64,000 bases of DNA, from assembly GCA_964531785.1 (NCBI GenBank), contig CAZHFF010000001.1, positions 229,997 through 293,996 on the forward strand. The letters are read 5' to 3'. The notes under the pieces are model-generated. The model searched no databases and was not told where the DNA came from. It saw nothing but the letters and a program-made list of their open reading frames with translations. This DNA is from an uncultured Candidatus Saccharibacteria bacterium. Lineage in GTDB: Bacteria; Patescibacteriota; Minisyncoccia; Phycocordibacterales; UBA12088. The position numbers and the translations under genes were made by a program. This document shows, piece by piece, positions 13,690-40,603 of this stretch (position 1 is the stretch's first letter; each line of letters opens with the position of its first letter).

Positions 13690-13718
13690 TTGACAGTGAA
13701 CACTCGTTCACCTACACT
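13690..13718 (+). promoter_or_regulatory. Sigma-70-type promoter TTGACA-N17-TACACT with embedded LexA (Cheo-type) box
   Basis: -35 at 13690-13695 and -10 at 13713-13718. The spacer contains the palindrome GTGAAC-ACTC-GTTCAC (13696-13711), which fits GAAC-N4-GTTC. Confidence 0.65.
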
Positions 13719-13746
13719 GAGGACATACCAGATAACAGCCGGGCGT

Positions 13747-14022
13747 ATGAGCAAGAACACCCTAACCAAAGAGATCATCCGTGAGCTTGAAAAGCTCAAT
13801 GACACGATCGATCGCAAGATCATCAAGGGGCTTTCCTACAAAACGGAGGCAAAACGCCATCGCGAGCTCACCGAAACCCTGCACCGGATCCGTGCGGAAA
13901 GCGAAGACGAACTGCTCGCGCACGCGGCGCACCGGTCAGGTCGTCGGGGCAAGAGTCCGGTGCGGAGAGAGCTTGCCGGGGGTGTCGTACGCAGGTTGTT
14001 CGGCTTCAGTCTCGCAGTATAG
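13747..14022 (+). CDS. Hypothetical small protein, first gene behind the SOS promoter
   Basis: ATG at 13747 lies downstream of the predicted TSS. Coiled-coil-like N-terminus, basic and hydrophobic C-terminus. Confidence 0.5.
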   Translation: MSKNTLTKEIIRELEKLNDTIDRKIIKGLSYKTEAKRHRELTETLHRIRAESEDELLAHAAHRSGRRGKSPVRRELAGGVVRRLFGFSLAV

Positions 14023-14074
14023 TGAGCTGCTCAGGCCGGCTTCCGATTTCCGCGCACTAAAAACATTCTTCAGC

Positions 14075-14527
14075 ATGTCGCACGAAACAAAGTTCAAGAT
14101 CATCGCGTCCGTCTATCTCGTGCTCGAGCGAGATGAGAAGAAGCTATTGATCCGTCGGTTCAGGACCGGTTTTGAAGACGGTAAGTATGCATTGGCCGCA
14201 GGGCATGTTGATGGTAATGAGACCATGCGCGAAGCACTGGTGAGGGAGGTCCGCGAGGAGATAGGTATTGAGCTTACTGTCGATGAGCTGGAGCTTGTCC
14301 ACACCATGCACCGCTTTTGCGGTGATCATGAGCGCGTAGATCTGTTCTTTAAAACGCGGGACTGGGAAGGGGAGCCTTGCAATATGGAACCGGAAAAATG
14401 TGATGACGTGCACTGGTTTCCTAACGACGCTCTGCCTGAGAATCTGGTGCAGTATGTCCGCGTTGCGCTCGGTCACATAGATGCGGGTGTGCAATACAGT
14501 GAGTTCGGATGGAGTTTGAATAGGTGA
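14075..14527 (+). CDS. NUDIX hydrolase (MutT-like)
   Basis: Nudix box GHVDGNETMREALVREVREEIGIE. Confidence 0.85.
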   Translation: MSHETKFKIIASVYLVLERDEKKLLIRRFRTGFEDGKYALAAGHVDGNETMREALVREVREEIGIELTVDELELVHTMHRFCGDHERVDLFFKTRDWEGEPCNMEPEKCDDVHWFPNDALPENLVQYVRVALGHIDAGVQYSEFGWSLNR

Positions 14528-14530
14528 CAT

Positions 14531-15100
14531 ATGGAACACTACAAAAAACAGCTCTACACCTTCTATCACACGCATCGTCGCATGCCCGGCTACAGCGAGA
14601 TGTGCGAGCTCTTCGGGTTCGCTTCGAAGAACGCGGTCGCCAAGGTGGTCGACAAGTTGGTCGATGCCGGGGTGATACACAAAGATGCAAAGGGAAAGCT
14701 GCTCCCGCTTTCGCTCGGCGACGAGGTGCCGCTTTTGGGGTATGTTGAGGCTGGCTTTCCGTCCCCTGCCGAGGAGATGGCGCTCGACAGGATCACGATG
14801 ACCGACCTCTTGCTCGACACCAAAGACCCGGTTTACCTCTTGCGCGTGAAGGGCGACTCCATGATCGACGCGGGTATCTTTGAGGGTGACCTCCTACTGG
14901 TGGAGCGTACCGAGCACGTTCGGGTCGGGGACATCGTGGTCGCGAACATGGACGGTGAGTGGACCGTGAAATACCTCCGGGAAAAGCGTGGCCGTCGCTA
15001 CCTAGAGCCTGCAAATGAGGACTATCCCGACCTATATCCTGAACACTCTTTAGAGATAGGGGGTGTGGTAAGGAATGTCATACGGACGTACAGAAAATAA
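14531..15100 (+). CDS. lexA: LexA repressor
   Basis: Winged-helix N-terminus, cleavage site VEAGFPSP, S24 catalytic GDSM and VKYL. Confidence 0.9.
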   Translation: MEHYKKQLYTFYHTHRRMPGYSEMCELFGFASKNAVAKVVDKLVDAGVIHKDAKGKLLPLSLGDEVPLLGYVEAGFPSPAEEMALDRITMTDLLLDTKDPVYLLRVKGDSMIDAGIFEGDLLLVERTEHVRVGDIVVANMDGEWTVKYLREKRGRRYLEPANEDYPDLYPEHSLEIGGVVRNVIRTYRK

Positions 15101-15548
15101 TTCAAAAGGCAAAAATCAAAATGCAAAATTACAGTTCAAATGTAAAAAGTGATCTACGCCAACGCTGCTATTCATTTAGTTTATCGATCATTAAGGTTGT
15201 TGACGGGTTGCCTAGCAAGAGAGCGGCGTGGGTGATAGCAGATCAGCTTATCAGGTCCTCCACATCTGTTGGGGCAAATTTAGTAGAAGGTAAATCAGCA
15301 AGTTCGCGACTCGAGTTCAAGAAGTTTTATGAGATCGCCCTTAAATCAGCAAATGAAACAAAATACTGGCTCTCTTTGTTAAAAGATGCAGGTTTATGTG
15401 ATCGTTCGCACGTTGAGCCGCTGATGAGCGAAATCGTAGAGATTAGTAACATGTTAGCAAGTGGAGTCATTAAACTTAAGCAGAAGGTGTGACTTTTTAC
15501 TTTTGCCTTGTATTTTTGACCTTTGCATTTTGAGTTTTGACTTCTAGC
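15101..15548 (+). mobile_element. AT-rich inverted-repeat-bounded unit carrying the four-helix-bundle gene
   Basis: Left arm 15101-15150 pairs with right arm 15492-15548: TCAAAATGCAAA with TTTGCATTTTGA, and GTAAAAAGT with ACTTTTTAC. The interior is visibly AT-richer than the flanks. Confidence 0.4.
15121..15492 (+). CDS. Four-helix-bundle protein (23S rRNA intervening-sequence protein / Avd-like family)
   Basis: Family hallmarks SFSLSIIKVVDGLP, SVGANLVEG and YEIALKSANETKYWLSLL. Confidence 0.9.
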   Translation: MQNYSSNVKSDLRQRCYSFSLSIIKVVDGLPSKRAAWVIADQLIRSSTSVGANLVEGKSASSRLEFKKFYEIALKSANETKYWLSLLKDAGLCDRSHVEPLMSEIVEISNMLASGVIKLKQKV

Positions 15549-15582
15549 ATAGGCTTAGACTTACTACTTTCTACTCTTTACT

Positions 15583-17037
15583 ATGCAAATAGACCCATCA
15601 ACCCCACTTGTCTTCATCGACCTGGAGACCACAGGCACGAGTCCTCGCCATCATCGAGTGATCGAGGTCGGTATCGTGCGTGTTGAAGAAGGGGAGGCGG
15701 TGAAGGAGTATAAAACACTTTTGAACCCAGGCGAGCTGGTGCCCGCGTTCGTTGCTTCGCTCACCGGCATCTCTACGGCGATGCTCCAGGGCGCACCACA
15801 GTTCGAGGACGTTGCCCTGGAGATCGCAGAGCTGCTCGAAGGAGCACTTTTTGTTGCGCATAATGCGCCATTCGATTACGGCTTTTTGGGAGCAGAGTTC
15901 CGTCGTATCGGCATGTCGTTCTCGTATCCGTACCTTTGCACAGCGAAACTCTCACGTGAACTGTATCCGGAGCACAGGCACCATAACCTTGATACGATCA
16001 TAGAACGCTATAGTCTCCAAGCGGGCGATAGGCACCGTGCTCTTGATGATGCAAAGGTGTTGCACCAGCTGTTGGGTGTCATGAGGAAGGAGCTCGGTGA
16101 TGAGCGAGTGTTCGAGGTGTGTCAGAACATGGTGCGTGTGCGCAACCTTCCGCTTCATATACAGGAGGAACAGGTAGCGCGCCTTCCGGAGCTTTGTGGT
16201 GTGTACTTTTTCTATGGAAAAAACGATGAGCTGTTGTACGTTGGCAAGAGCAGGAGAATACGCACCAGGGTTCGCTCCCATTTCTCTGCCGATGCGCTCT
16301 CCGGTAGGGGTCGTGACATGCTTTCCGAGATACGGCGCATCGAATACAAGGTAACGGCCGGTGAGCTCGGCGCGCTCTTGCTTGAGTCGCACCTCATCAA
16401 AACACAGTTGCCGGTATACAACGTGCGCGAACGGGAACGCAAGGCACTCTGTCTGGCGCGTGAACACACTGATGCCACAGGATATAGTCGTATCGCCATC
16501 GAGTACGCAGACACGATTGAACGCGGTGAGGAGGCAAGTATCGCAGCTGTTTTCAAAAGCAAGCGACAAGCAAAGGAAGTACTCGGACAGCTTGCAAAGG
16601 ACCATACCCTCTGCCCGACGCTTCTTGGTCTTGAGAAGCCTACTACTGAGAAGGCGCCATGTTTTAGCGCTCAGCTTGAGCAGTGTCAAGGTGCCTGTGC
16701 CGGAGTAGAGAAATCTCGCCATTATAACAAGCGTTTTCGATCAGCATTTTCACACCACCGTATAAAGGCATGGCCATTTGCGGGGCCAGTCGCTATCGAG
16801 GAAAAGAACCTCGACGGCTCGGGTGAGCTTTTTGTGGTCGATAACTGGCGTTTGCTCACCGCGCTCCATCTTGAGGACGGTGAATGGCAAGAGTTCGTTC
16901 CTGCGCGATTCCGGTTTGACTACGATGCCTACAAGATATTTTCGCGTGAGCTGTTACGCAGGAAACCTAAGGTACAGGTACGCGAGTTAACGTCTGTTGA
17001 ACAAGCTTGGTTAGAAGGAGCGAGCACTCCCCTATAA
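15583..17037 (+). CDS. DnaQ-type 3'-5' exonuclease fused to a GIY-YIG/UvrC-N-like nuclease (Cho / Rv2191-like)
   Basis: DEDDh motifs FIDLETTG, AHNAPFDYGFL and HRALDDA. GIY-YIG motifs GVYFFY..LLYVGKS..R.RV.SHF. Confidence 0.85.
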   Translation: MQIDPSTPLVFIDLETTGTSPRHHRVIEVGIVRVEEGEAVKEYKTLLNPGELVPAFVASLTGISTAMLQGAPQFEDVALEIAELLEGALFVAHNAPFDYGFLGAEFRRIGMSFSYPYLCTAKLSRELYPEHRHHNLDTIIERYSLQAGDRHRALDDAKVLHQLLGVMRKELGDERVFEVCQNMVRVRNLPLHIQEEQVARLPELCGVYFFYGKNDELLYVGKSRRIRTRVRSHFSADALSGRGRDMLSEIRRIEYKVTAGELGALLLESHLIKTQLPVYNVRERERKALCLAREHTDATGYSRIAIEYADTIERGEEASIAAVFKSKRQAKEVLGQLAKDHTLCPTLLGLEKPTTEKAPCFSAQLEQCQGACAGVEKSRHYNKRFRSAFSHHRIKAWPFAGPVAIEEKNLDGSGELFVVDNWRLLTALHLEDGEWQEFVPARFRFDYDAYKIFSRELLRRKPKVQVRELTSVEQAWLEGASTPL

Positions 17038-17044
17038 GTCACCT

Positions 17045-17157
17045 GTCAAATGTTTAAAGTCAAATGTACAAGTAAAAGATCAAAAAATTATCTGTTAGTG
17101 ATAGACATTTTGTTTGAAATATACTTTTGACCTCTGACCTTTAATCTTTGAAGTTCT
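17045..17157. repeat. Cargo-less member of the AT-rich inverted-repeat family
   Basis: Left arm GTCAAATGTTTAAAGTCAAATGTACAAGTAAAAGATCAAAAAA. Right arm CATTTTGTTTGAAATATACTTTTGACCTCTGACCTTTAATCTTTGAAGTTC. It abuts the ATG at 17158. Confidence 0.55.
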
Positions 17158-17553
17158 ATGAAGCCCGTCTCATTCATTCGCACCGCGCCAACTGCACTGG
17201 GGGAGGTCAAGAGTGACGCAGGGTACAGGAACCCGCTTTCACTTGACGCGCTGTTGGTGAGTCATCCAACCTCGACGTTCTTTGTTCGTGTCGGGAATGA
17301 TGTGGACGAAGCAGGTGAAGGTTTAGGTGTCGTTGCAGGAGATTTGCTCATTGTGGACCGATCTGTTTTGCCAACACTTGGCAGGCTGGTGCTTGCAGTG
17401 GTTGAGGGGCAACTTGTGCTGCGTCGTTACACAGAACATGAATCTCGTCGGTTTCTTGTTTCTGGAACACCAAAGCCACAGTCTATCGAGCTTACAGACG
17501 AACATAACGTAGTGCTTTGGGGTGTGGTGACTGCAACGGTTCGGCACGTCTGA
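17158..17553 (+). CDS. UmuD-like S24-fold protein lacking the Ser/Lys catalytic dyad
   Basis: Collinear with UmuD and the LexA C-terminal domain (LLVSHPTSTFFVRV..GDLLIVD..VLAVVEG). GDSMIDAG is replaced by GNDVDEAG, and the TVK(K/Y)L lysine by VLRRY. Confidence 0.75.
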   Translation: MKPVSFIRTAPTALGEVKSDAGYRNPLSLDALLVSHPTSTFFVRVGNDVDEAGEGLGVVAGDLLIVDRSVLPTLGRLVLAVVEGQLVLRRYTEHESRRFLVSGTPKPQSIELTDEHNVVLWGVVTATVRHV

Positions 17554-17612
17554 TTTTGCAAATTAGTAGCCTGATCTATGCTAGTTGTGAGTATGTGCTA
17601 TCGTACAATACC

Positions 17613-18080
17613 ATGAAATGGAAGACGCCACCGACCATAAAGATATATGAAGCGCTTGGTGCGATCAGTGACGGGCGTGTCGAGGTTGAGGGGAACGTTG
17701 CCAAGGTCTATTCATCAAGTCGAGGTAAGTACTACGACGTAACCTATGACCCGGTTGCAGGCGCTATCATGGCGAATGACAACGGGTCGTACTGGAAAGG
17801 GTACCTAGGCTACCCGTCGATTGCGTTGCTTATGCTCAAGCAAGTCCTACCTTACGACCTCAGTGTCGCGATGTTGCTCAAAGATATTCCCTGGAAAGAT
17901 ATTAACCAGAAGCATAAGAACAATTTTGATAAAACGTTGTCGTATGTGCTTGGGGCGGTTCTGCACAGGGGAGGGAATGTGCAAGATCTTGAGCGATACG
18001 TGGAGGATATCAAACAACGGGTACAGGCACTGGAGCTCTCACATTTAGGGCCGAGAGCACAGCCGCCGGAGGGATATTGA
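17613..18080 (+). CDS. Hypothetical protein between umuD-like and umuC
   Basis: 155-aa ORF starting MKWKTPPTIKIYE, with a TGCTATCGT box just upstream. No motif recognised. Confidence 0.5.
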   Translation: MKWKTPPTIKIYEALGAISDGRVEVEGNVAKVYSSSRGKYYDVTYDPVAGAIMANDNGSYWKGYLGYPSIALLMLKQVLPYDLSVAMLLKDIPWKDINQKHKNNFDKTLSYVLGAVLHRGGNVQDLERYVEDIKQRVQALELSHLGPRAQPPEGY

Positions 18081-18351
18081 CGCATGGGCGGCTTATAGTA
18101 CGTGGGTACGCATGATGTCAAGAACTGCATCATGAGTACAATGTGTCATCTCATGCTGGTTCTTCGAAACGAAAGAAGCAGGATGCACCGTGCCTCGGTT
18201 GTGAGTAGCACGCAAAGGGCAGATTGGTCTGTTTGCCAGCCTGCCCCTCATGACTCGAGCACCCACGTCATAGGACTTATGGTCGAACCGAATGTGGCGC
18301 TTGAGGCAAAGACCATTGCGGCTGTAGGTCTGCCCAAAATTCTTGCCCCCC

Positions 18352-19878
18352 ATGCTGTCACCCATCACGCTCATCGACTGCAACAACTTTTTTGTAAGCT
18401 GCGAGCGGCTTTTTCGCCCTGATTTGGTAGGACGGCCAGTCGTTGTGCTCTCCAGTAATGACGGGTGTGTGATATCGCGGAGTGAAGAGGCAAAAGCACT
18501 TGGTGTTAAAATGGGTGAACCGTACTTCAAGGTGAAGGACGCGTGCATGAAGCATGGGGTCACGGTCTTTTCCTCGAACTTTGACCTCTACCGCGACCTT
18601 TCGCGTCGTGTCATGCATACGCTACGCAGTTTCTCTGACGATGTTGAGGTGTACTCTGTGGACGAAGCCTTTCTAACCAGAACATCTCTGAAGGCCCCAT
18701 CTGCTTTGTCGCCTTCGTCGTGCGGACTCTCACCGTACTCACAGTACGACTCGAGTCCCCACTCCTCGGCGCCTTGCATCTGGGGTCTTGATAGATGTTC
18801 TGGCGGTGGGTGTACAAAGCACGAGATGTGTGAACTATATGCTTGGGGTCAGCTTATCCGCAGCACTGTGTTTCGTGAAGTAGGTATACCGGTCTCGGTC
18901 GGCATTGCTCCCACAAAGACGCTTGCAAAGGCTGCCACGTACTTTGCCAAACACGCCTCGCGGGCGTATGGGAATGGGGAACGACGAAGTATGGGGGGCG
19001 AGTATGAGAATGAGGCAACGGTTCCGCATACGAACTCCGCATACGAAACTCAGAGCCACGCTCCGTATACGAACACGCTCTGCACACAAGGCGTATGCGT
19101 ATTCATGGACGAGGCGGCACGCACACAAGCCCTCAACATCTTGCCCATTGAAGAGGTTTGGGGAGTGGGGTTCCGCCTTGCCCCAAAGCTTGTTGCGTTA
19201 GGTGTCGATACAGCAGGGAAGCTCGCGGCAATGAACGATGCGTGGATCCATAAAAAGATGAGCATACGGGGCTTGCGCACCGTAGAAGAGCTTCGAGGCA
19301 AGCGGTGCTACAAGATCGGCGAAGATACGGAGCTTAGGAAGTCGCTCCTCCATTCGCAGTCGTTCGGTAGGCCTGTCAAAGACCTACCGGCTCTACGTGC
19401 CGCGGTCGCATACCATGCACGCAAGGTTGCTGAGACCCTGCGTGCCGAGCGTGCCGCAGCTCGGAGCGTTCACGTGACCGTGCGTACCTCGCGCCATGGG
19501 CAAGTGCGGTACGCTGCTGGTGATATGGATATTTTACCTGCACACACGAACAGTACGTTCGAGCTTGTATCCCAAGCGCTTGCCGTGCTCACGCGCATCT
19601 ACCGTCAAGGTTTCCCGTATGCAAAGGCTGGTGTCATGGTGACCGATATCGTTCCGGAGGGCGCGGTACATCCGGTGACATTGTTCGGTGCTGTTCCGGG
19701 TGACGTGCAGCCCCTGATGAAGGCATGGGACGAACTGCGTCACCGCTATGGACCCAACGTGGTGCGTTTGGGTGTCGAAGGCAAGCAGACCGCCTGGGCG
19801 GCTCGCCACGGGCTGCTTTCGCCTCGATACACCACGGACTGGAAGGAGATAGTGATGGTGCAGAAAGTTAAAAGTTAA
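18352..19878 (+). CDS. umuC: Y-family DNA polymerase, UmuC type
   Basis: Collinear with E. coli UmuC: IDCNNFFVSCERLFRPDL..VVVLSSNDGCVISRS.EAKALGVKMG, SVDEAF, and C-terminal LSPRYTT. Two low-complexity insertions. Confidence 0.9.
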   Translation: MLSPITLIDCNNFFVSCERLFRPDLVGRPVVVLSSNDGCVISRSEEAKALGVKMGEPYFKVKDACMKHGVTVFSSNFDLYRDLSRRVMHTLRSFSDDVEVYSVDEAFLTRTSLKAPSALSPSSCGLSPYSQYDSSPHSSAPCIWGLDRCSGGGCTKHEMCELYAWGQLIRSTVFREVGIPVSVGIAPTKTLAKAATYFAKHASRAYGNGERRSMGGEYENEATVPHTNSAYETQSHAPYTNTLCTQGVCVFMDEAARTQALNILPIEEVWGVGFRLAPKLVALGVDTAGKLAAMNDAWIHKKMSIRGLRTVEELRGKRCYKIGEDTELRKSLLHSQSFGRPVKDLPALRAAVAYHARKVAETLRAERAAARSVHVTVRTSRHGQVRYAAGDMDILPAHTNSTFELVSQALAVLTRIYRQGFPYAKAGVMVTDIVPEGAVHPVTLFGAVPGDVQPLMKAWDELRHRYGPNVVRLGVEGKQTAWAARHGLLSPRYTTDWKEIVMVQKVKS

Positions 19879-20020
19879 AAGGCAAAGGTCAAAAGTGTCC
19901 TACGTTCTAGAACCAGCGAATGCAGGGTTGAATTTACCGAAGTAATCGTTGACATATAGAATAGGATATGTTTAGTAGCATCAGAATTTGCGCATCTAGG
20001 GACTTGGGAAGGGTAATTGA

Positions 20021-20335
20021 ATGAATGCACAAGTCGGTATCAGGATGTTTTTCGGCCTCATGTTTGTCGTCGTGCTCGCAGGTTGCGAGGAGTTGACAAG
20101 TACAGAGGATAACAGGGACGCGTGTTCCATTGTTAATTATGGCCAGGGGGTCTTATATTTCTCCTGCACCCGAGACATGTTCGCCAGAACACTGGCGAAG
20201 TGGAGAGAGGAAAATCCCTGTGCCATCAGCGCTGTCACCGGCAACGGAACAGGTGGCGCCGGTTATGACCAGGGATACTTTATATTCCTTGAGTCAACAA
20301 CATGTTCCTTGGGCTCGGAACTTGGGAAAAGGTAG
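20021..20335 (+). CDS. Small lipoprotein, hypothetical
   Basis: Signal peptide with lipobox VLAG|C, six Cys residues, AT-richer codons than neighbouring genes. Confidence 0.6.
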   Translation: MNAQVGIRMFFGLMFVVVLAGCEELTSTEDNRDACSIVNYGQGVLYFSCTRDMFARTLAKWREENPCAISAVTGNGTGGAGYDQGYFIFLESTTCSLGSELGKR

Positions 20336-20356
20336 GCGACCGCTACTATCGATAAG

Positions 20357-20382
20357 GCGACGCGCTCACCCGCGTCGTTTTT
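20357..20382 (+). terminator. Rho-independent terminator
   Basis: CGACGCG-N6-CGCGTCG followed by TTTTTT. Confidence 0.7.
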
Positions 20383-20508
20383 TCTTTTTAAAAAACGGAT
20401 CCTTCCCATTCTTACCTGCACTTTTGCATTTTGCATTTTGACTTTTGAACTTTGAATTTTTCATGTATTTCCATCTTCCTTTCTGTATCCCCACATACCC
20501 TCGATATT

Positions 20509-40509: not shown

Positions 40510-40566
40510 ACTGTAAGTATATGGTAGAAGGGAGAAGGTAGAAAGGTGGCTATATACAGGCGTTTA

Positions 40567-40603
40567 GAAGTTAAAGGTCAAAAGCACAGGTCAAAGTTCA
40601 AAC
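40567..40603. repeat. Solo arm of the AT-rich repeat family
   Basis: GAAGTTAAAGGTCAAAAGCACAGGTCAAAGTTCAAAC. Shares the 12-mer AAAGGTCAAAAG with 19884-19895. Confidence 0.5.

What the first reader, a model, noticed from the sequence alone, without database searches (positions are those of the whole stretch)
13690..20462. SOS repair/mutagenesis island invaded three times by one AT-rich inverted-repeat family
The following lie on one strand, in this order:
- a consensus promoter with an embedded LexA-type box
- a small ORF, a NUDIX gene and lexA
- an IR unit carrying a four-helix-bundle gene
- a DnaQ-exonuclease/GIY-YIG (Cho/Rv2191-like) gene
- an empty IR unit
- an umuD-like gene, an unknown ORF and umuC
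- an IR unit carrying a lipoprotein gene

Every loose junction between SOS genes holds a member of the same AT-rich family, whose core is AAAGGTCAAAAG / TTTTGACCTTT. The arms even supply the last codons of umuC (..VQKVKS*) and the first codons of the four-helix-bundle gene (MQNYSSNVKS). Such repeated, targeted insertion into one damage-inducible transcription unit is not a described arrangement as far as I know. It suggests either a mobile or IVS-like element with a target preference, or RNA-processing punctuation of an SOS operon.
Basis: partly seen in the sequence, partly recalled or inferred. Interest (0 to 1): 0.75.

Follow-up and report, generated by a model that had tools for sequence, protein, structure and literature searches.

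The report
Four-helix-bundle intervening elements colonising an SOS operon
A DNA-damage (SOS) operon of a Saccharibacteria-like bacterium carries one intact and two decayed copies of a small selfish-looking module, a four-helix-bundle gene between AT-rich inverted arms; the same module sits between operon genes in many other ultra-small bacteria and resembles the intervening sequences known from ribosomal RNA genes.

Summary
A LexA-box promoter (13690-13718) heads a same-strand operon: small ORF, NUDIX, lexA, Cho-like nuclease, umuD-like, UCP014422, umuC. Three AT-rich inverted-repeat units of one family interrupt it.

The arms are not generic spacers. A profile built from them hits the 64-kb window 8 times, 7 of them in this island. 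They are the two ends of a discrete ~443-nt module. It consists of a PF05635/TIGR02436 four-helix-bundle gene (S23p/Avd-like, the family found in 23S rRNA intervening sequences) between seven-heptad arms, (NNCAAAA)7 and (TTTTGNN)7.

I found the module in more than 90 otherwise unrelated Patescibacteria and Chitinophagaceae contigs. It is co-oriented with host genes and sits in stop|start junctions of operons (dnaK|dnaJ, gatA|gatB, rnc|smc, nuoF|nuoG). None of those loci is SOS-related.

- Unit 1 is intact.
- Unit 2 is a deletion relic.
- Unit 3 keeps both arms and about 15 N-terminal codons, with an ORFan replacing the rest.

Related SOS operons show presence/absence polymorphism.

The arms and the protein are under purifying selection. 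Arm pairing shows no covariation, so the IVS-like mechanism (co-transcription, stem formation, RNase III cleavage) is inferred from the rRNA precedent and is not shown here. General SOS targeting is not supported, although local enrichment is real. Verdict: a new variant of a known kind.

The parts
13690..13718 (+). SOS promoter: TTGACA, 17-nt spacer, TACACT, with a Cheo-type LexA box GAACACTCGTTC at 13698-13709
   Evidence: This is the best promoter-like site in the region, 10/12. The GAAC-N4-GTTC match is exact.
13747..14022 (+). Conserved 91-aa first gene of the operon, function unknown
   Evidence: No Pfam or NCBIfam hit. Homologues (52-61% identity) lie in the same position in L003, L005, L008 and L009.
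14075..14527 (+). NUDIX hydrolase, an accessory insertion in this lineage
   Evidence: PF00293 1e-17. No homologue was found in the operons of L003, L005, L006, L008 and L009.
14531..15100 (+). lexA
   Evidence: Peptidase_S24 9e-29; TIGR00498 4e-30.
15098..15150 (+). Unit 1 A-arm (left arm): seven NNCAAAA heptads. It starts at the lexA stop codon and contains the 4HB start codon plus 10 codons.
   Evidence: nhmmer arm profile E 1.2e-6. Inverted repeat I1. Gapless alignment with 23 other elements.
15121..15492 (+). Four-helix-bundle gene (S23p / 23S_rRNA_IVP / TIGR02436, Avd-like)
   Evidence: PF05635 2.9e-26; TIGR02436 7e-29. PDB 2RLD 3e-16. 75-80% amino-acid identity to the two L003 copies, whose pairwise dN/dS is 0.08.
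15492..15543 (+). Unit 1 T-arm (right arm): TTTTGNN heptads. It contains the 4HB stop codon.
   Evidence: nhmmer E 2.8e-9. Duplex with the A-arm is -33.4 kcal/mol, z -5.1.
15583..17037 (+). DEDD exonuclease + GIY-YIG, Cho-like nuclease
   Evidence: RNase_T 8e-37, GIY-YIG 8e-8, NF007833 Cho 5e-59. Precomputed UvrC_M and Cho_C.
17037..17085 (+). Unit 2 A-arm relic. It keeps ..TCAAATGTA..AAAAG.ATC, the lineage-specific variant of the 4HB 5' end.
   Evidence: nhmmer E 0.13. Alignment with U1 and the L003 arms.
17114..17152 (+). Unit 2 T-arm relic, ending 5 nt before the umuD start codon
   Evidence: nhmmer E 0.006. Aligns in register with all other T-arms. The hairpin is not better than shuffles.
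17158..17553 (+). umuD-like gene (S24 peptidase)
   Evidence: PF00717 2.7e-8; NF007621 9e-21.
17613..18080 (+). UCP014422-family ORF, an accessory gene
   Evidence: Precomputed PF27709. Present in L005 and L006. No homologue was found in L003, L008 or L009.
18343..19878 (+). umuC (the true start is probably the ATG at 18352). The last five codons and the stop codon are supplied by the unit 3 A-arm.
   Evidence: IMS 1e-38, IMS_C 6e-20, DUF4113 1.5e-16. C-terminal alignment.
19865..19897 (+). Unit 3 A-arm, followed by about 15 recognisable 4HB N-terminal codons (KAKVKSVLRSRTSEC, to about 19920)
   Evidence: nhmmer E 1.6e-4. The 4HB profile aligns only to these codons and scores about 0 bits, so the match rests on visual similarity.
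20021..20335 (+). Lipobox ORF (..VVLAGC..) filling unit 3. It is an ORFan and may not be a real gene.
   Evidence: No family hit. Only itself was found among 5.8 billion proteins.
20354..20381 (+). Terminator-like hairpin plus T-run inside unit 3; the probable end of the SOS transcription unit
   Evidence: 11-pair stem, the strongest + strand terminator-like site in the island.
20409..20460 (+). Unit 3 T-arm
   Evidence: nhmmer E 5e-7. Duplex with the A-arm is -31.6 kcal/mol, z -4.9.
40566..40602 (-). Solo T-arm between valS and the next same-strand gene (a 252-aa membrane ORF). It is the only family member outside the island.
   Evidence: nhmmer E 0.062. Aligns in register with the other T-arms. 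Context.

Best explanation
The region is a LexA-controlled SOS operon of a Saccharibacteria-like genome, colonised by an intervening-element family that is widespread in Patescibacteria.

**The element**
- The full element is about 443 nt.
- It carries a four-helix-bundle gene of the S23p / 23S_rRNA_IVP / TIGR02436 (Avd-like) family.
- The gene lies between two ~50-nt inverted arms, each made of seven heptads: (NNCAAAA)7 on the left and (TTTTGNN)7 on the right.
- The left arm contains the start codon and 11 codons. The right arm contains the stop codon.

**The three units**
- Unit 1 (lexA|cho junction) is intact.
- Unit 2 (cho|umuD) is an internally deleted, decaying relic.
- Unit 3 (after umuC) keeps both arms and about 15 N-terminal codons. 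Its body has been replaced by an ORFan with its own terminator.

**Shown**
- The family membership.
- The discrete module boundaries.
- Co-orientation with host genes, and location in stop|start junctions of operons.
- Purifying selection on both the protein and the arms.
- The existence of MITE-like empty derivatives.
- Patchy presence among related SOS operons.

**Inferred from the experimentally characterised rRNA IVSs of the same gene family**
- The element has no promoter of its own and is transcribed by read-through from the host operon.
- The arms pair in the RNA into a long, imperfect A-U-rich stem.
- RNase III cuts that stem. This releases the 4HB message and leaves the downstream cistron with a short U-rich leader, so the insertion is tolerated even inside essential operons.

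**Why the SOS operon**
In this clade the SOS operon appears to be a permissive site that accretes accessory genes, and there is no evidence of a dedicated target.
For: **Identity**
- PF05635 2.9e-26, TIGR02436 7e-29, PDB 2RLD 3e-16.

**Arm family**
- Motif enrichment.
- Profile hits are confined to the island.
- All arms, including the solo ones, align in register.

**Generality**
- All of the roughly 40 closest 4HB loci in species-representative genomes carry the same arms, whatever the host GC (30-63%).
- 36 metagenome contigs add further cases.
- Nucleotide similarity between contigs starts and stops exactly at the arm ends: 68-78% identity over about 443 nt, with unrelated flanks.

**Context**
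- Open-frame test for co-orientation: 26 to 4 upstream and 29 to 6 downstream.
- Neighbouring gene pairs include dnaK|dnaJ x3, gatA|gatB, rnc|smc x2, pheS|pheT, nuoF|nuoG, nuoK|nuoL and adk|map.
- The downstream ATG lies 1-12 nt after the T-arm, and 43 of 45 such genes lack an SD-like motif.

**Selection**
- 4HB dN/dS is 0.08 between the L003 paralogues.
- Over 389 element pairs, the non-coding left arm has p-distance 0.17 and the right arm 0.33, against a synonymous pS of 0.81.

**Derivatives**
- Empty hairpin units in L011 (x2), L018 and L037 fold with z -2.5 to -7.9 and retain the ATGCAAAAT start.
- U3 retains N-terminal codons.

**Pairing**
- 78.6% of cells pair in register, against 55-60% when slid by 1 column.
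- Mean duplex energy is -27.6 kcal/mol, against -11.8 for shuffled arms.

**Polymorphism**.

**Precedent**: an IVS with an S23p ORF, terminal inverted repeats, RNase III cleavage within the stem, and GC below that of the genome (PMC4990558).
Against: **No evolutionary signature of an RNA stem**
- Covariation equals the shuffled expectation.
- RNAalifold predicts no consensus helix.
- Cognate arm pairs are no more stable than non-cognate pairs (-27.6 against -26.6 kcal/mol).
- G.U mismatches are not enriched over A.C (72 against 58, p 0.25).
- The two variable positions of each heptad are often unpaired, so the stem is punctuated by bubbles.

**Problems within the window**
- U2 does not fold better than shuffles.
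- U3 contains a terminator-like hairpin between its arms. This would prevent the arms from being co-transcribed.

**Gaps**
- No RNase III gene lies in the 64-kb window, which is uninformative about the whole genome.
- How the element moves is unknown. No recent transfer (above 90% identity in two different contexts) was seen. The closest pair is the two L003 copies, at 87%.
Confidence: 0.6

Rival explanations
1. A DNA-level mobile element. On this reading the arms are terminal inverted repeats bound by a recombinase acting in trans, or by the 4HB protein itself. The empty units would be true MITEs, and RNA pairing would be incidental.
For: - The primary sequence of the arms is strongly conserved without covariation, as expected for protein-binding sites.
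- There are empty derivatives and solo arms.
- The module has sharp boundaries across unrelated genomes.
- Two paralogues in L003 diverged after the split from the window lineage.
- A ~70-nt direct duplication flanks a cargo gene in L003.
Against: - Pfam annotation of the called genes shows no transposase or integrase within about 10 kb upstream or 2 kb downstream of the window's Cho gene (the contig ends there), or within 8 kb either side in L003.
- The parent element encodes a 123-aa helical bundle with no nuclease or recombinase fold known for its family.
- Conservation is highest in the inner and central arm (..AAAATGCAAAAT..), not at the tips (alignment).
- No consistent target-site duplication is seen.
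- The roughly 6:1 co-orientation with host transcription and the exact stop|start placement are not expected of a DNA transposon.
Confidence: 0.2
2. Expression modules. On this reading the arms, especially the T-arm, are portable cis-elements kept because they drive the downstream gene, and the 4HB gene is a passenger. Candidate roles are a promoter for a leaderless or short-leader mRNA, or an SD-independent U-rich translation-initiation region.
For: - T-arms end 1-12 nt before the downstream ATG, and 43 of 45 such genes lack an SD-like motif.
- Solo T-arms sit upstream of genes: window 40566-40602, L003 6872-6924, 9960-10008 and 17232-17266.
- In L003 a T-arm plus 7 codons was duplicated to head a new cargo ORF.
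- T-arms contain repeated TTGAC(C/T) -35-like hexamers.
- A promoter-like site (9/12) lies in unit 2 at 17098-17125.
Against: - The consensus scan finds no promoter-like site in the T-arms of U1 or U3.
- The canonical T-arm has no good -10 hexamer (read from the alignment).
- This reading does not explain the mirrored A-arm, the mirrored irregular fifth heptad, or the tight linkage to a protein under dN/dS 0.08.
- The background SD estimate was crude (16.5%), so the contrast is weak (p 0.03).
Confidence: 0.12
3. One reading: the family specifically targets, or has been recruited to punctuate, the damage-inducible SOS transcription unit. Possible benefits would be decoupling expression of lexA, cho and umuDC, or making cargo SOS-inducible.
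For: - 7 of 8 arm hits in 64 kb, and 9 of 10 in the 17 kb of L003, lie in the SOS island.
- The lexA|cho junction carries a member in the window, in L003 and (as a relic) in the early-branching L101. On the Cho tree this needs at least 2 gains or about 4 losses.
- Three Saccharibacteria carry the element in another stress operon, dnaK|dnaJ.
Against: - None of the more than 90 other element loci is next to lexA, cho, umuD or umuC.
- Most hosts are housekeeping junctions.
- Five of nine related SOS operons have no arms and are compact.
- The same operon also accretes unrelated accessory genes without arms, such as Bro-N, PemK, DUF5680 and DUF4395. This points to a permissive site.
- The tree is a single-gene NJ tree.
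Confidence: 0.1
4. Integron-like cassettes. On this reading the arm hairpins are attC-like recombination sites and the genes between them are cassettes.
For: - Imperfect hairpin units sit between genes.
- Cargo differs between related genomes at the same junctions.
Against: - No IntI-type integrase appears in the annotated neighbourhoods.
- The arms show no GTTRRRY core (read from the alignments).
- Elsewhere the element occurs singly, inside housekeeping operons, not in arrays.
Confidence: 0.03

Closest known systems
23S rRNA intervening sequences carrying an S23p ORF (Coxiella burnetii, Leptospira, Xanthomonas/Brucella type)
   Same: - The same protein family (PF05635, four-helix bundle).
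- The ORF is bracketed by terminal inverted repeats that can form a stem.
- The element is more AT-rich than its host genome.
- It has no promoter of its own and depends on host transcription.
- Its distribution is sporadic, suggesting horizontal spread.
- ORF-less versions exist.
- For the rRNA IVSs, RNase III cleavage within the stem has been shown (PMC4990558).
- 23S_rRNA_IVP ORFs also occur in rRNA insertions of CPR bacteria (10.1101/2024.02.27.582315).
   Different: - The element here lies between protein-coding cistrons, not in an rRNA helix.
- The arms are about 50 nt of phased heptads at roughly 75-80% complementarity. The Coxiella stem is 28 bp and nearly perfect.
- The arms overlap both ends of the ORF and abut the host stop and start codons.
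- Processing has not been tested.
Correia repeat-enclosed elements (CREE / NEMIS) of Neisseria, and similar co-transcribed MITE-like repeats (ERIC, RUP, BOX)
   Same: - They are short inverted-repeat units in intergenic positions of operons and are co-transcribed.
- Their hairpins are bound or cut by RNase III.
- They can alter expression of adjacent genes.
- They show presence/absence polymorphism (PMC2649163).

This matches the empty units described here.
   Different: - No sequence relationship is evident.
- Correia elements have no coding parent, whereas these empty units are deletion derivatives of a gene-carrying element.
- Copy number here is low (4 sites in 64 kb), against hundreds per Neisseria genome.
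Avd, the accessory variability determinant of diversity-generating retroelements
   Same: A homologous four-helix-bundle fold and family (PF05635 is described as Avd-like in PMC10053308).
   Different: - No reverse transcriptase appears among the annotated genes near the window's island or around L003. Template and variable repeats were not searched for.
- The gene is embedded in heptad arms inside unrelated operons.
23S_rRNA_IVP genes reported inside cas operons (Zhang and Ye 2013, PMC3936711)
   Same: - The same family is found wedged between adjacent operon genes, for example between cmr3 and cmr2.
- The RxxxSxxxNxxE motif reported there is present here (R45, S49, N53, E56).
   Different: - That report read the pattern as a functional association with nucleases and did not describe flanking arms or an element structure.
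- The hosts here are SOS and housekeeping operons.

Membership tests
PF05635 / TIGR02436 four-helix-bundle protein (S23p, 23S_rRNA_IVP) | Scores above the curated family thresholds | tested here: met
   PF05635 scores 92.2 bits against a cut-off of 33.8. TIGR02436 scores 100.2 bits against a cut-off of 24. PDB 2RLD matches at 3e-16.
PF05635 / TIGR02436 four-helix-bundle protein (S23p, 23S_rRNA_IVP) | Conserved RxxxSxxxNxxE motif (PMC3936711) | tested here: met
   R45-S49-N53-E56 in LIRSSTSVGANLVEG, read from the translation. The leading G of GxxR is Q here.
23S rRNA intervening sequence (IVS) | Inserted in a 23S rRNA helix, and so fragments the rRNA | tested here: not met
   The element lies between lexA and cho. 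Rfam finds only 4 tRNAs in the window and no rRNA near 16 other element loci.
23S rRNA intervening sequence (IVS) | Complementary termini able to form a stem around the ORF | tested here: met
   U1 arms are 52 nt and 75% complementary. Their duplex is -33.4 kcal/mol, z -5.1. Across the family, 78.6% of cells pair in register.
23S rRNA intervening sequence (IVS) | Excised from the transcript by RNase III | not testable with these tools
   This needs RNA end-mapping or an in vitro cleavage assay. The indirect tests (covariation, wobble bias) were neutral.
23S rRNA intervening sequence (IVS) | GC content below that of the host genome | tested here: met
   U1 is 39% GC against 56% for the window.
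MITE (miniature inverted-repeat transposable element), for units 2 and 3 | Terminal inverted repeats, small size, no transposase | tested here: met
   The arms are recognised by the profile. U2 is about 116 nt with no ORF.
MITE (miniature inverted-repeat transposable element), for units 2 and 3 | Target-site duplication | tested here: inconclusive
   No consistent direct repeat is seen at the module boundaries. The heptad arms make the boundaries fuzzy. The upstream stop codon lies at variable offsets, -16 to -31.
MITE (miniature inverted-repeat transposable element), for units 2 and 3 | Derived from an autonomous element that encodes a transposase | tested here: not met
   The full-length parent encodes only the 4HB protein.
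Diversity-generating retroelement (Avd component) | Linked reverse transcriptase and template/variable repeats | tested here: not met
   No RT domain appears among the called genes within about 10 kb upstream and 2 kb downstream of the window's Cho gene (the contig ends there), or within 8 kb either side in L003. Template and variable repeats were not searched for specifically.
Integron cassette array | IntI integrase nearby and attC sites with a GTTRRRY core | tested here: not met
   No integrase appears in the annotated flanks. The arm tips read AAGTCAAAAG / CTTTTGAATT.
LexA-regulated SOS operon (Gram-positive-type box) | GAAC-N4-GTTC operator overlapping a promoter upstream of lexA and repair genes | tested here: met
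   The box at 13698-13709 lies between the -35 and -10 hexamers. LexA binding was not tested.

The most novel reading that the evidence does not exclude
These modules may be a distinct, undescribed class of operon-junction (mRNA) intervening elements.

- Their heptad arms bring the upstream stop codon and the downstream start codon together at the base of a stem. RNase III cleavage, or ribosome re-initiation across the stem, would then preserve expression of both flanking cistrons. That would explain how the elements persist inside essential operons.
- The conserved four-helix-bundle protein acts on the arms to propagate or maintain the element.
- In one Saccharibacteria clade, arm-to-arm recombination has turned an SOS operon into a platform that captures cargo genes and expresses them on DNA damage.
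Probability: 0.25. Interest if true: 0.8.

Novelty: new variant of a known kind. Interest (0 to 1): 0.62.

Why it matters
- **An old question.** The origin, mobility and protein function of S23p-type intervening sequences have been open since the early 1990s, with only a handful of rRNA examples to study. A conserved arm-bracketed form sitting in many mRNA operon junctions, with empty and cargo-swapped derivatives, gives a much larger comparative set. It also gives simple experimental designs, such as two-cistron reporters, RNase III assays and 4HB-arm binding assays.
- **Annotation.** It offers a plain explanation for why "four helix bundle protein" genes turn up wedged inside unrelated operons, including cas operons. 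That pattern has been read as functional association.
- **This genome.** The SOS operon's odd spacers are relics of element turnover and not SOS regulatory sites. The operon is also a local hot spot for accessory-gene accretion.

Tried and rejected
- **Rfam.** No family matches the arms at E up to 1. Only tRNAs are found in the window.
- **RNAalifold** on 24 elements gave no consensus stem.
- **Covariation** for a manually defined 41-pair in-register structure equals the shuffled expectation.
- **Cognate versus non-cognate arm duplexes** show no difference.
- **G.U versus A.C bias** as a test for sense-RNA selection is not significant.
- **Generic spacer idea** is rejected. There are 8 profile hits in 64 kb and none in L005, L008, L009, L099 or L100.
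- **Phage origin.** There were no matches to the start-arm pattern in viral contigs.
- **Mobile lipoprotein cargo.** The ORF is an ORFan with no homologue.
- **Decayed or inverted 4HB gene inside unit 3.** A single tblastn hit (E 0.04) was not confirmed by a 4HB profile, which scored 0 bits or less. Only the first ~15 codons on the + strand are recognisable.
- **RNase III gene in the window.** None found, which is uninformative.
- **Fixed stop-codon target.** Upstream stops cluster at -16 to -31 relative to the 4HB ATG, but not at one position.
- **Strain-level filled and empty alleles.** The window's proteins occur on a single population's contigs. Identical metagenome copies are all filled.
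- **Literature.** Searches by arm sequence, family names and CPR repeat terms found no description of the arms. The library is limited to open-access papers and preprints.

Full report
**1. What is in the sequence**

The window is 56% GC. Its closest relatives are annotated as Candidatus Saccharibacteria (L010 is the same contig as L003).

Between 13690 and 20462, all on the + strand, lie the following features:
- the best sigma-70-like promoter of the region, TTGACA-17-TACACT at 13690-13718 (10/12), with a perfect GAAC-N4-GTTC box at 13698-13709 in its spacer;
- a conserved 91-aa ORF;
- a NUDIX gene;
- lexA;
- a PF05635/TIGR02436 four-helix-bundle (4HB) gene;
- a DEDD-exonuclease/GIY-YIG Cho-like gene;
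- an umuD-like gene;
- a UCP014422-family ORF;
- umuC;
- a lipobox ORF.

The only convincing + strand terminator-like hairpin in the island is at 20354-20381. One transcription unit from 13719 to about 20390 is therefore plausible, but it has not been shown.

**2. The inverted-repeat family is real**

- U1 arms (15099-15150 / 15492-15543) are 52 nt and 75% complementary. U3 arms are 28 nt and 82% complementary.
- As RNA duplexes, U1 is -33.4 kcal/mol (z -5.1) and U3 is -31.6 kcal/mol (z -4.9). U2 is only -15.6 kcal/mol (z -1.6). U2's hairpin folds no better than shuffles.
- An nhmmer profile of right arms finds 8 hits in the 64-kb window. Seven form the three units. The eighth is a solo T-arm at 40566-40602 on the minus strand, between valS and the next same-strand gene.
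- The arms are tandem heptads, (NNCAAAA)n on the left and (TTTTGNN)n on the right. An irregular fifth heptad is mirrored on both sides.
- Two corrections to the finding. The 262-nt UCP014422|umuC gap carries no member. U2 is badly decayed.

**3. The arms are the ends of a widespread module**

- I searched species-representative genomes with the 4HB protein. This gave 53 loci.
- Every close homologue (56-80% identity, about 40 loci from Saccharibacteria, Parcubacteria, Microgenomates, Berkelbacteria and others) has the same arms.
  - The left arm is ..AAGTCAAAAGGCAAAAGTCAAA-ATGCAAAATTACAATTCAAAATTCAAAAGTGA... It includes the start codon and the N-terminus MQNYNSKFKSD.
  - The right arm is ..TTTTGACTTTTTACTTGAACTTTTGACTTTTGAATTTTGAATT.
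  - This holds in hosts from 30% to 63% GC.
- More distant 4HB genes (38-50% identity) in Chitinophagaceae carry similar heptad arms.
- An exact-pattern scan of metagenomes added 36 contigs. All 32 whose contig extends across the element show the paired arms about 390 nt apart.
- BLASTN shows that nucleotide similarity between these contigs (68-78%) begins and ends at the arm tips, about 443 nt apart. The flanks are unrelated.
- None of these loci lies in an rRNA gene, and Rfam has no matching family.

**4. Where the module sits**

- A test for open reading frames in the 300 nt on either side shows co-orientation with host genes: 26 to 4 upstream and 29 to 6 downstream.
- Pfam scans of the neighbours show classic operon junctions: dnaK|dnaJ (3), gatA|gatB, rnc|smc (2), pheS|pheT, nuoF|nuoG, nuoK|nuoL, adk|map, yebC|ruvC and ftsE|ftsX.
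- The A-arm begins at or within a few nucleotides of the upstream stop codon. TAA accounts for 28 of 41 cases, at offsets of -16 to -31 from the 4HB ATG.
- The downstream ATG follows the T-arm by 1-12 nt. 43 of 45 such genes have no SD-like motif.
- No locus outside the window's own clade is next to lexA, cho, umuD or umuC.

**5. Derivatives**

- Empty units, with the A-arm followed directly by the T-arm, occur in L011 (two), L018 and L037. They fold as long hairpins (z -2.5 to -7.9) and still contain the ATGCAAAAT start. They are therefore internal-deletion derivatives.
- Window U2 and the L003 empty unit occupy the same cho|umuD junction. Each resembles its own genome's 4HB copy. This points to gene conversion or parallel decay.
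- Window U3 keeps both arms and about 15 N-terminal 4HB codons, a visual match that the 4HB profile does not score (about 0 bits). A 4HB profile finds nothing else in it.
- U3's lipobox ORF has no homologue among 5.8 billion proteins. U3 also has its own promoter-like and terminator-like sites.

**6. Selection**

- The two L003 copies are 87% identical, with dN/dS 0.08. The protein is therefore functional.
- Those copies diverged after the split between the window lineage and L003 (lexA dS is about 2).
- Over 389 pairs of intact elements, synonymous sites are saturated (pS 0.81). The non-coding left arm differs at only 17% of positions and the right arm at 33%. pN is 0.21.
- The primary sequence of the arms is therefore constrained.

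**7. Is the constraint an RNA stem?**

- For: 78.6% of cells pair in register, against 55-60% after a 1-column slide. Arms pair far better than shuffled arms.
- Against:
  - covariation equals the shuffled expectation;
  - RNAalifold finds no consensus;
  - cognate and non-cognate arm pairs are equally stable;
  - G.U does not exceed A.C (72 against 58, p 0.25).
- The RNA-stem and RNase III mechanism therefore rests on two things. One is homology with rRNA IVSs, where stems formed by terminal repeats are cut by RNase III (PMC4990558). The other is co-orientation and tolerance of the element inside essential operons.
- It is an inference, and I put it at roughly even odds. The overall statement, identity plus IVS-like behaviour, gets 0.6.

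**8. Why the SOS operon?**

I compared nine related SOS operons, located through Cho homologues.

| Locus | State of the SOS operon |
|---|---|
| L008, L009 | Compact: small ORF-lexA-cho-umuD-umuC; no arms |
| L099, L100 | No arms; some extra ORFs at the junctions |
| L005 | No arms, but carries Bro-N and other inserts |
| L006 | A variant arm family, plus DUF5680 and PemK |
| L003 | Two 4HB units, an empty unit, extra T-arms heading a 59-aa and a 120-aa ORF, and a fourth unit before umuC |
| L101 | A divergent relic at lexA\|cho |
| Window | U1 intact, U2 relic, U3 with replaced body |

- On a single-gene NJ tree, L101 branches first. The pattern needs at least two gains or about four losses.
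- Local enrichment is real. With four independent events, three or more falling in a given 6.8 kb of 64 kb has P of about 0.004 (my calculation).
- The wider survey shows no general SOS preference. My preferred reading is that this is a dispensable operon that accretes accessory genes and tolerates element turnover. A junction-specific preference is not excluded.

**9. Comparison with what is known, and novelty**

- The closest known system is the S23p-encoding 23S rRNA IVS. It shares the protein family, the bracketing repeats, the low GC and the dependence on host transcription.
- The defining rRNA location is not met here, so this is not an rRNA IVS.
- The empty units behave like Correia/NEMIS-type co-transcribed repeats (PMC2649163).
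- PF05635 genes wedged between cas genes have been reported, without mention of arms (PMC3936711). 23S_rRNA_IVP ORFs have been noted in CPR rRNA insertions (10.1101/2024.02.27.582315).
- I found no description of the heptad arms, or of the operon-junction habit, in the searchable library. That library is incomplete.
- I rate this a new variant of a known kind, with interest 0.62.

Noticed in passing
window 18343-19878 (inserts at about 18676-18830 and 18958-19090); inverted repeat 18677-18704 / 18776-18803: umuC here and in L003 carries two in-frame, low-complexity inserts of about 45 aa each. They are absent from the L008 and L009 orthologues (511-519 aa against 420-428 aa). The first insert is bracketed by a 28-nt inverted repeat that is 82% complementary.
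   Followed up: partly
window 13747-14022: A 91-aa basic protein with a hydrophobic C-terminal tail is the first gene of the SOS operon in the five relatives whose upstream region could be compared (52-61% identity). It matches no Pfam or NCBIfam family. It might be an SOS-induced small effector such as a division inhibitor.
   Followed up: no
window 10102, 13073, 21733, 49059, 58586, 61938: GAAC-N4-GTTC occurs 7 times in the window against 1.1 expected. Apart from the SOS promoter box, the other six were not examined for promoter context.
   Followed up: no
L003 9543-10035: A direct duplication of about 70 nt flanks a 120-aa HExxH ORF inserted between cho and umuD. The duplicated segment is a T-arm plus the first 7 codons of umuD (MKSVSFI), so the cargo ORF borrows umuD's start. 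This suggests recombination at T-arms.
   Followed up: partly
L031 4368-4864: About 500 nt of tandem T-arm heptads follow a 4HB element in a Parcubacteria contig. This is an expanded arm array.
   Followed up: no
L017 3283-4417 and L029 3234-4420: In two genomes the element sits immediately downstream of the RNase III gene (the rnc|smc junction). RNase III is the enzyme proposed to process the element.
   Followed up: no
L042-L059 (Chitinophagaceae), e.g. L054 1655-7871: More distant 4HB genes in Bacteroidota also have heptad arms, and sit at the nuoF|nuoG junction in several genera. T-arm-like repeats also lie upstream of several other genes in L054. In that phylum the right-arm sequence may have a life of its own.
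   Followed up: partly
L006 4-50, 2700-2778, 5148-5224: The closest relative by Cho identity (75%) has a different arm variant, GAGCTTGTAATTTTGAATTT / AAATTCAAAATTACAAGCTC. It lies before lexA, after cho and before umuC, and the arm profile does not detect it.
   Followed up: no
L005, L006, L099, L100 SOS operons: The SOS operon of this clade accretes unrelated accessory genes at its junctions even where no arms are present. Examples are Bro-N, DUF5680, a PemK toxin, UCP014422 and DUF4395.
   Followed up: partly
window 20021-20335: The lipobox ORF inside unit 3 has no homologue in 5.8 billion proteins. It may be a spurious or very young ORF.
   Followed up: yes
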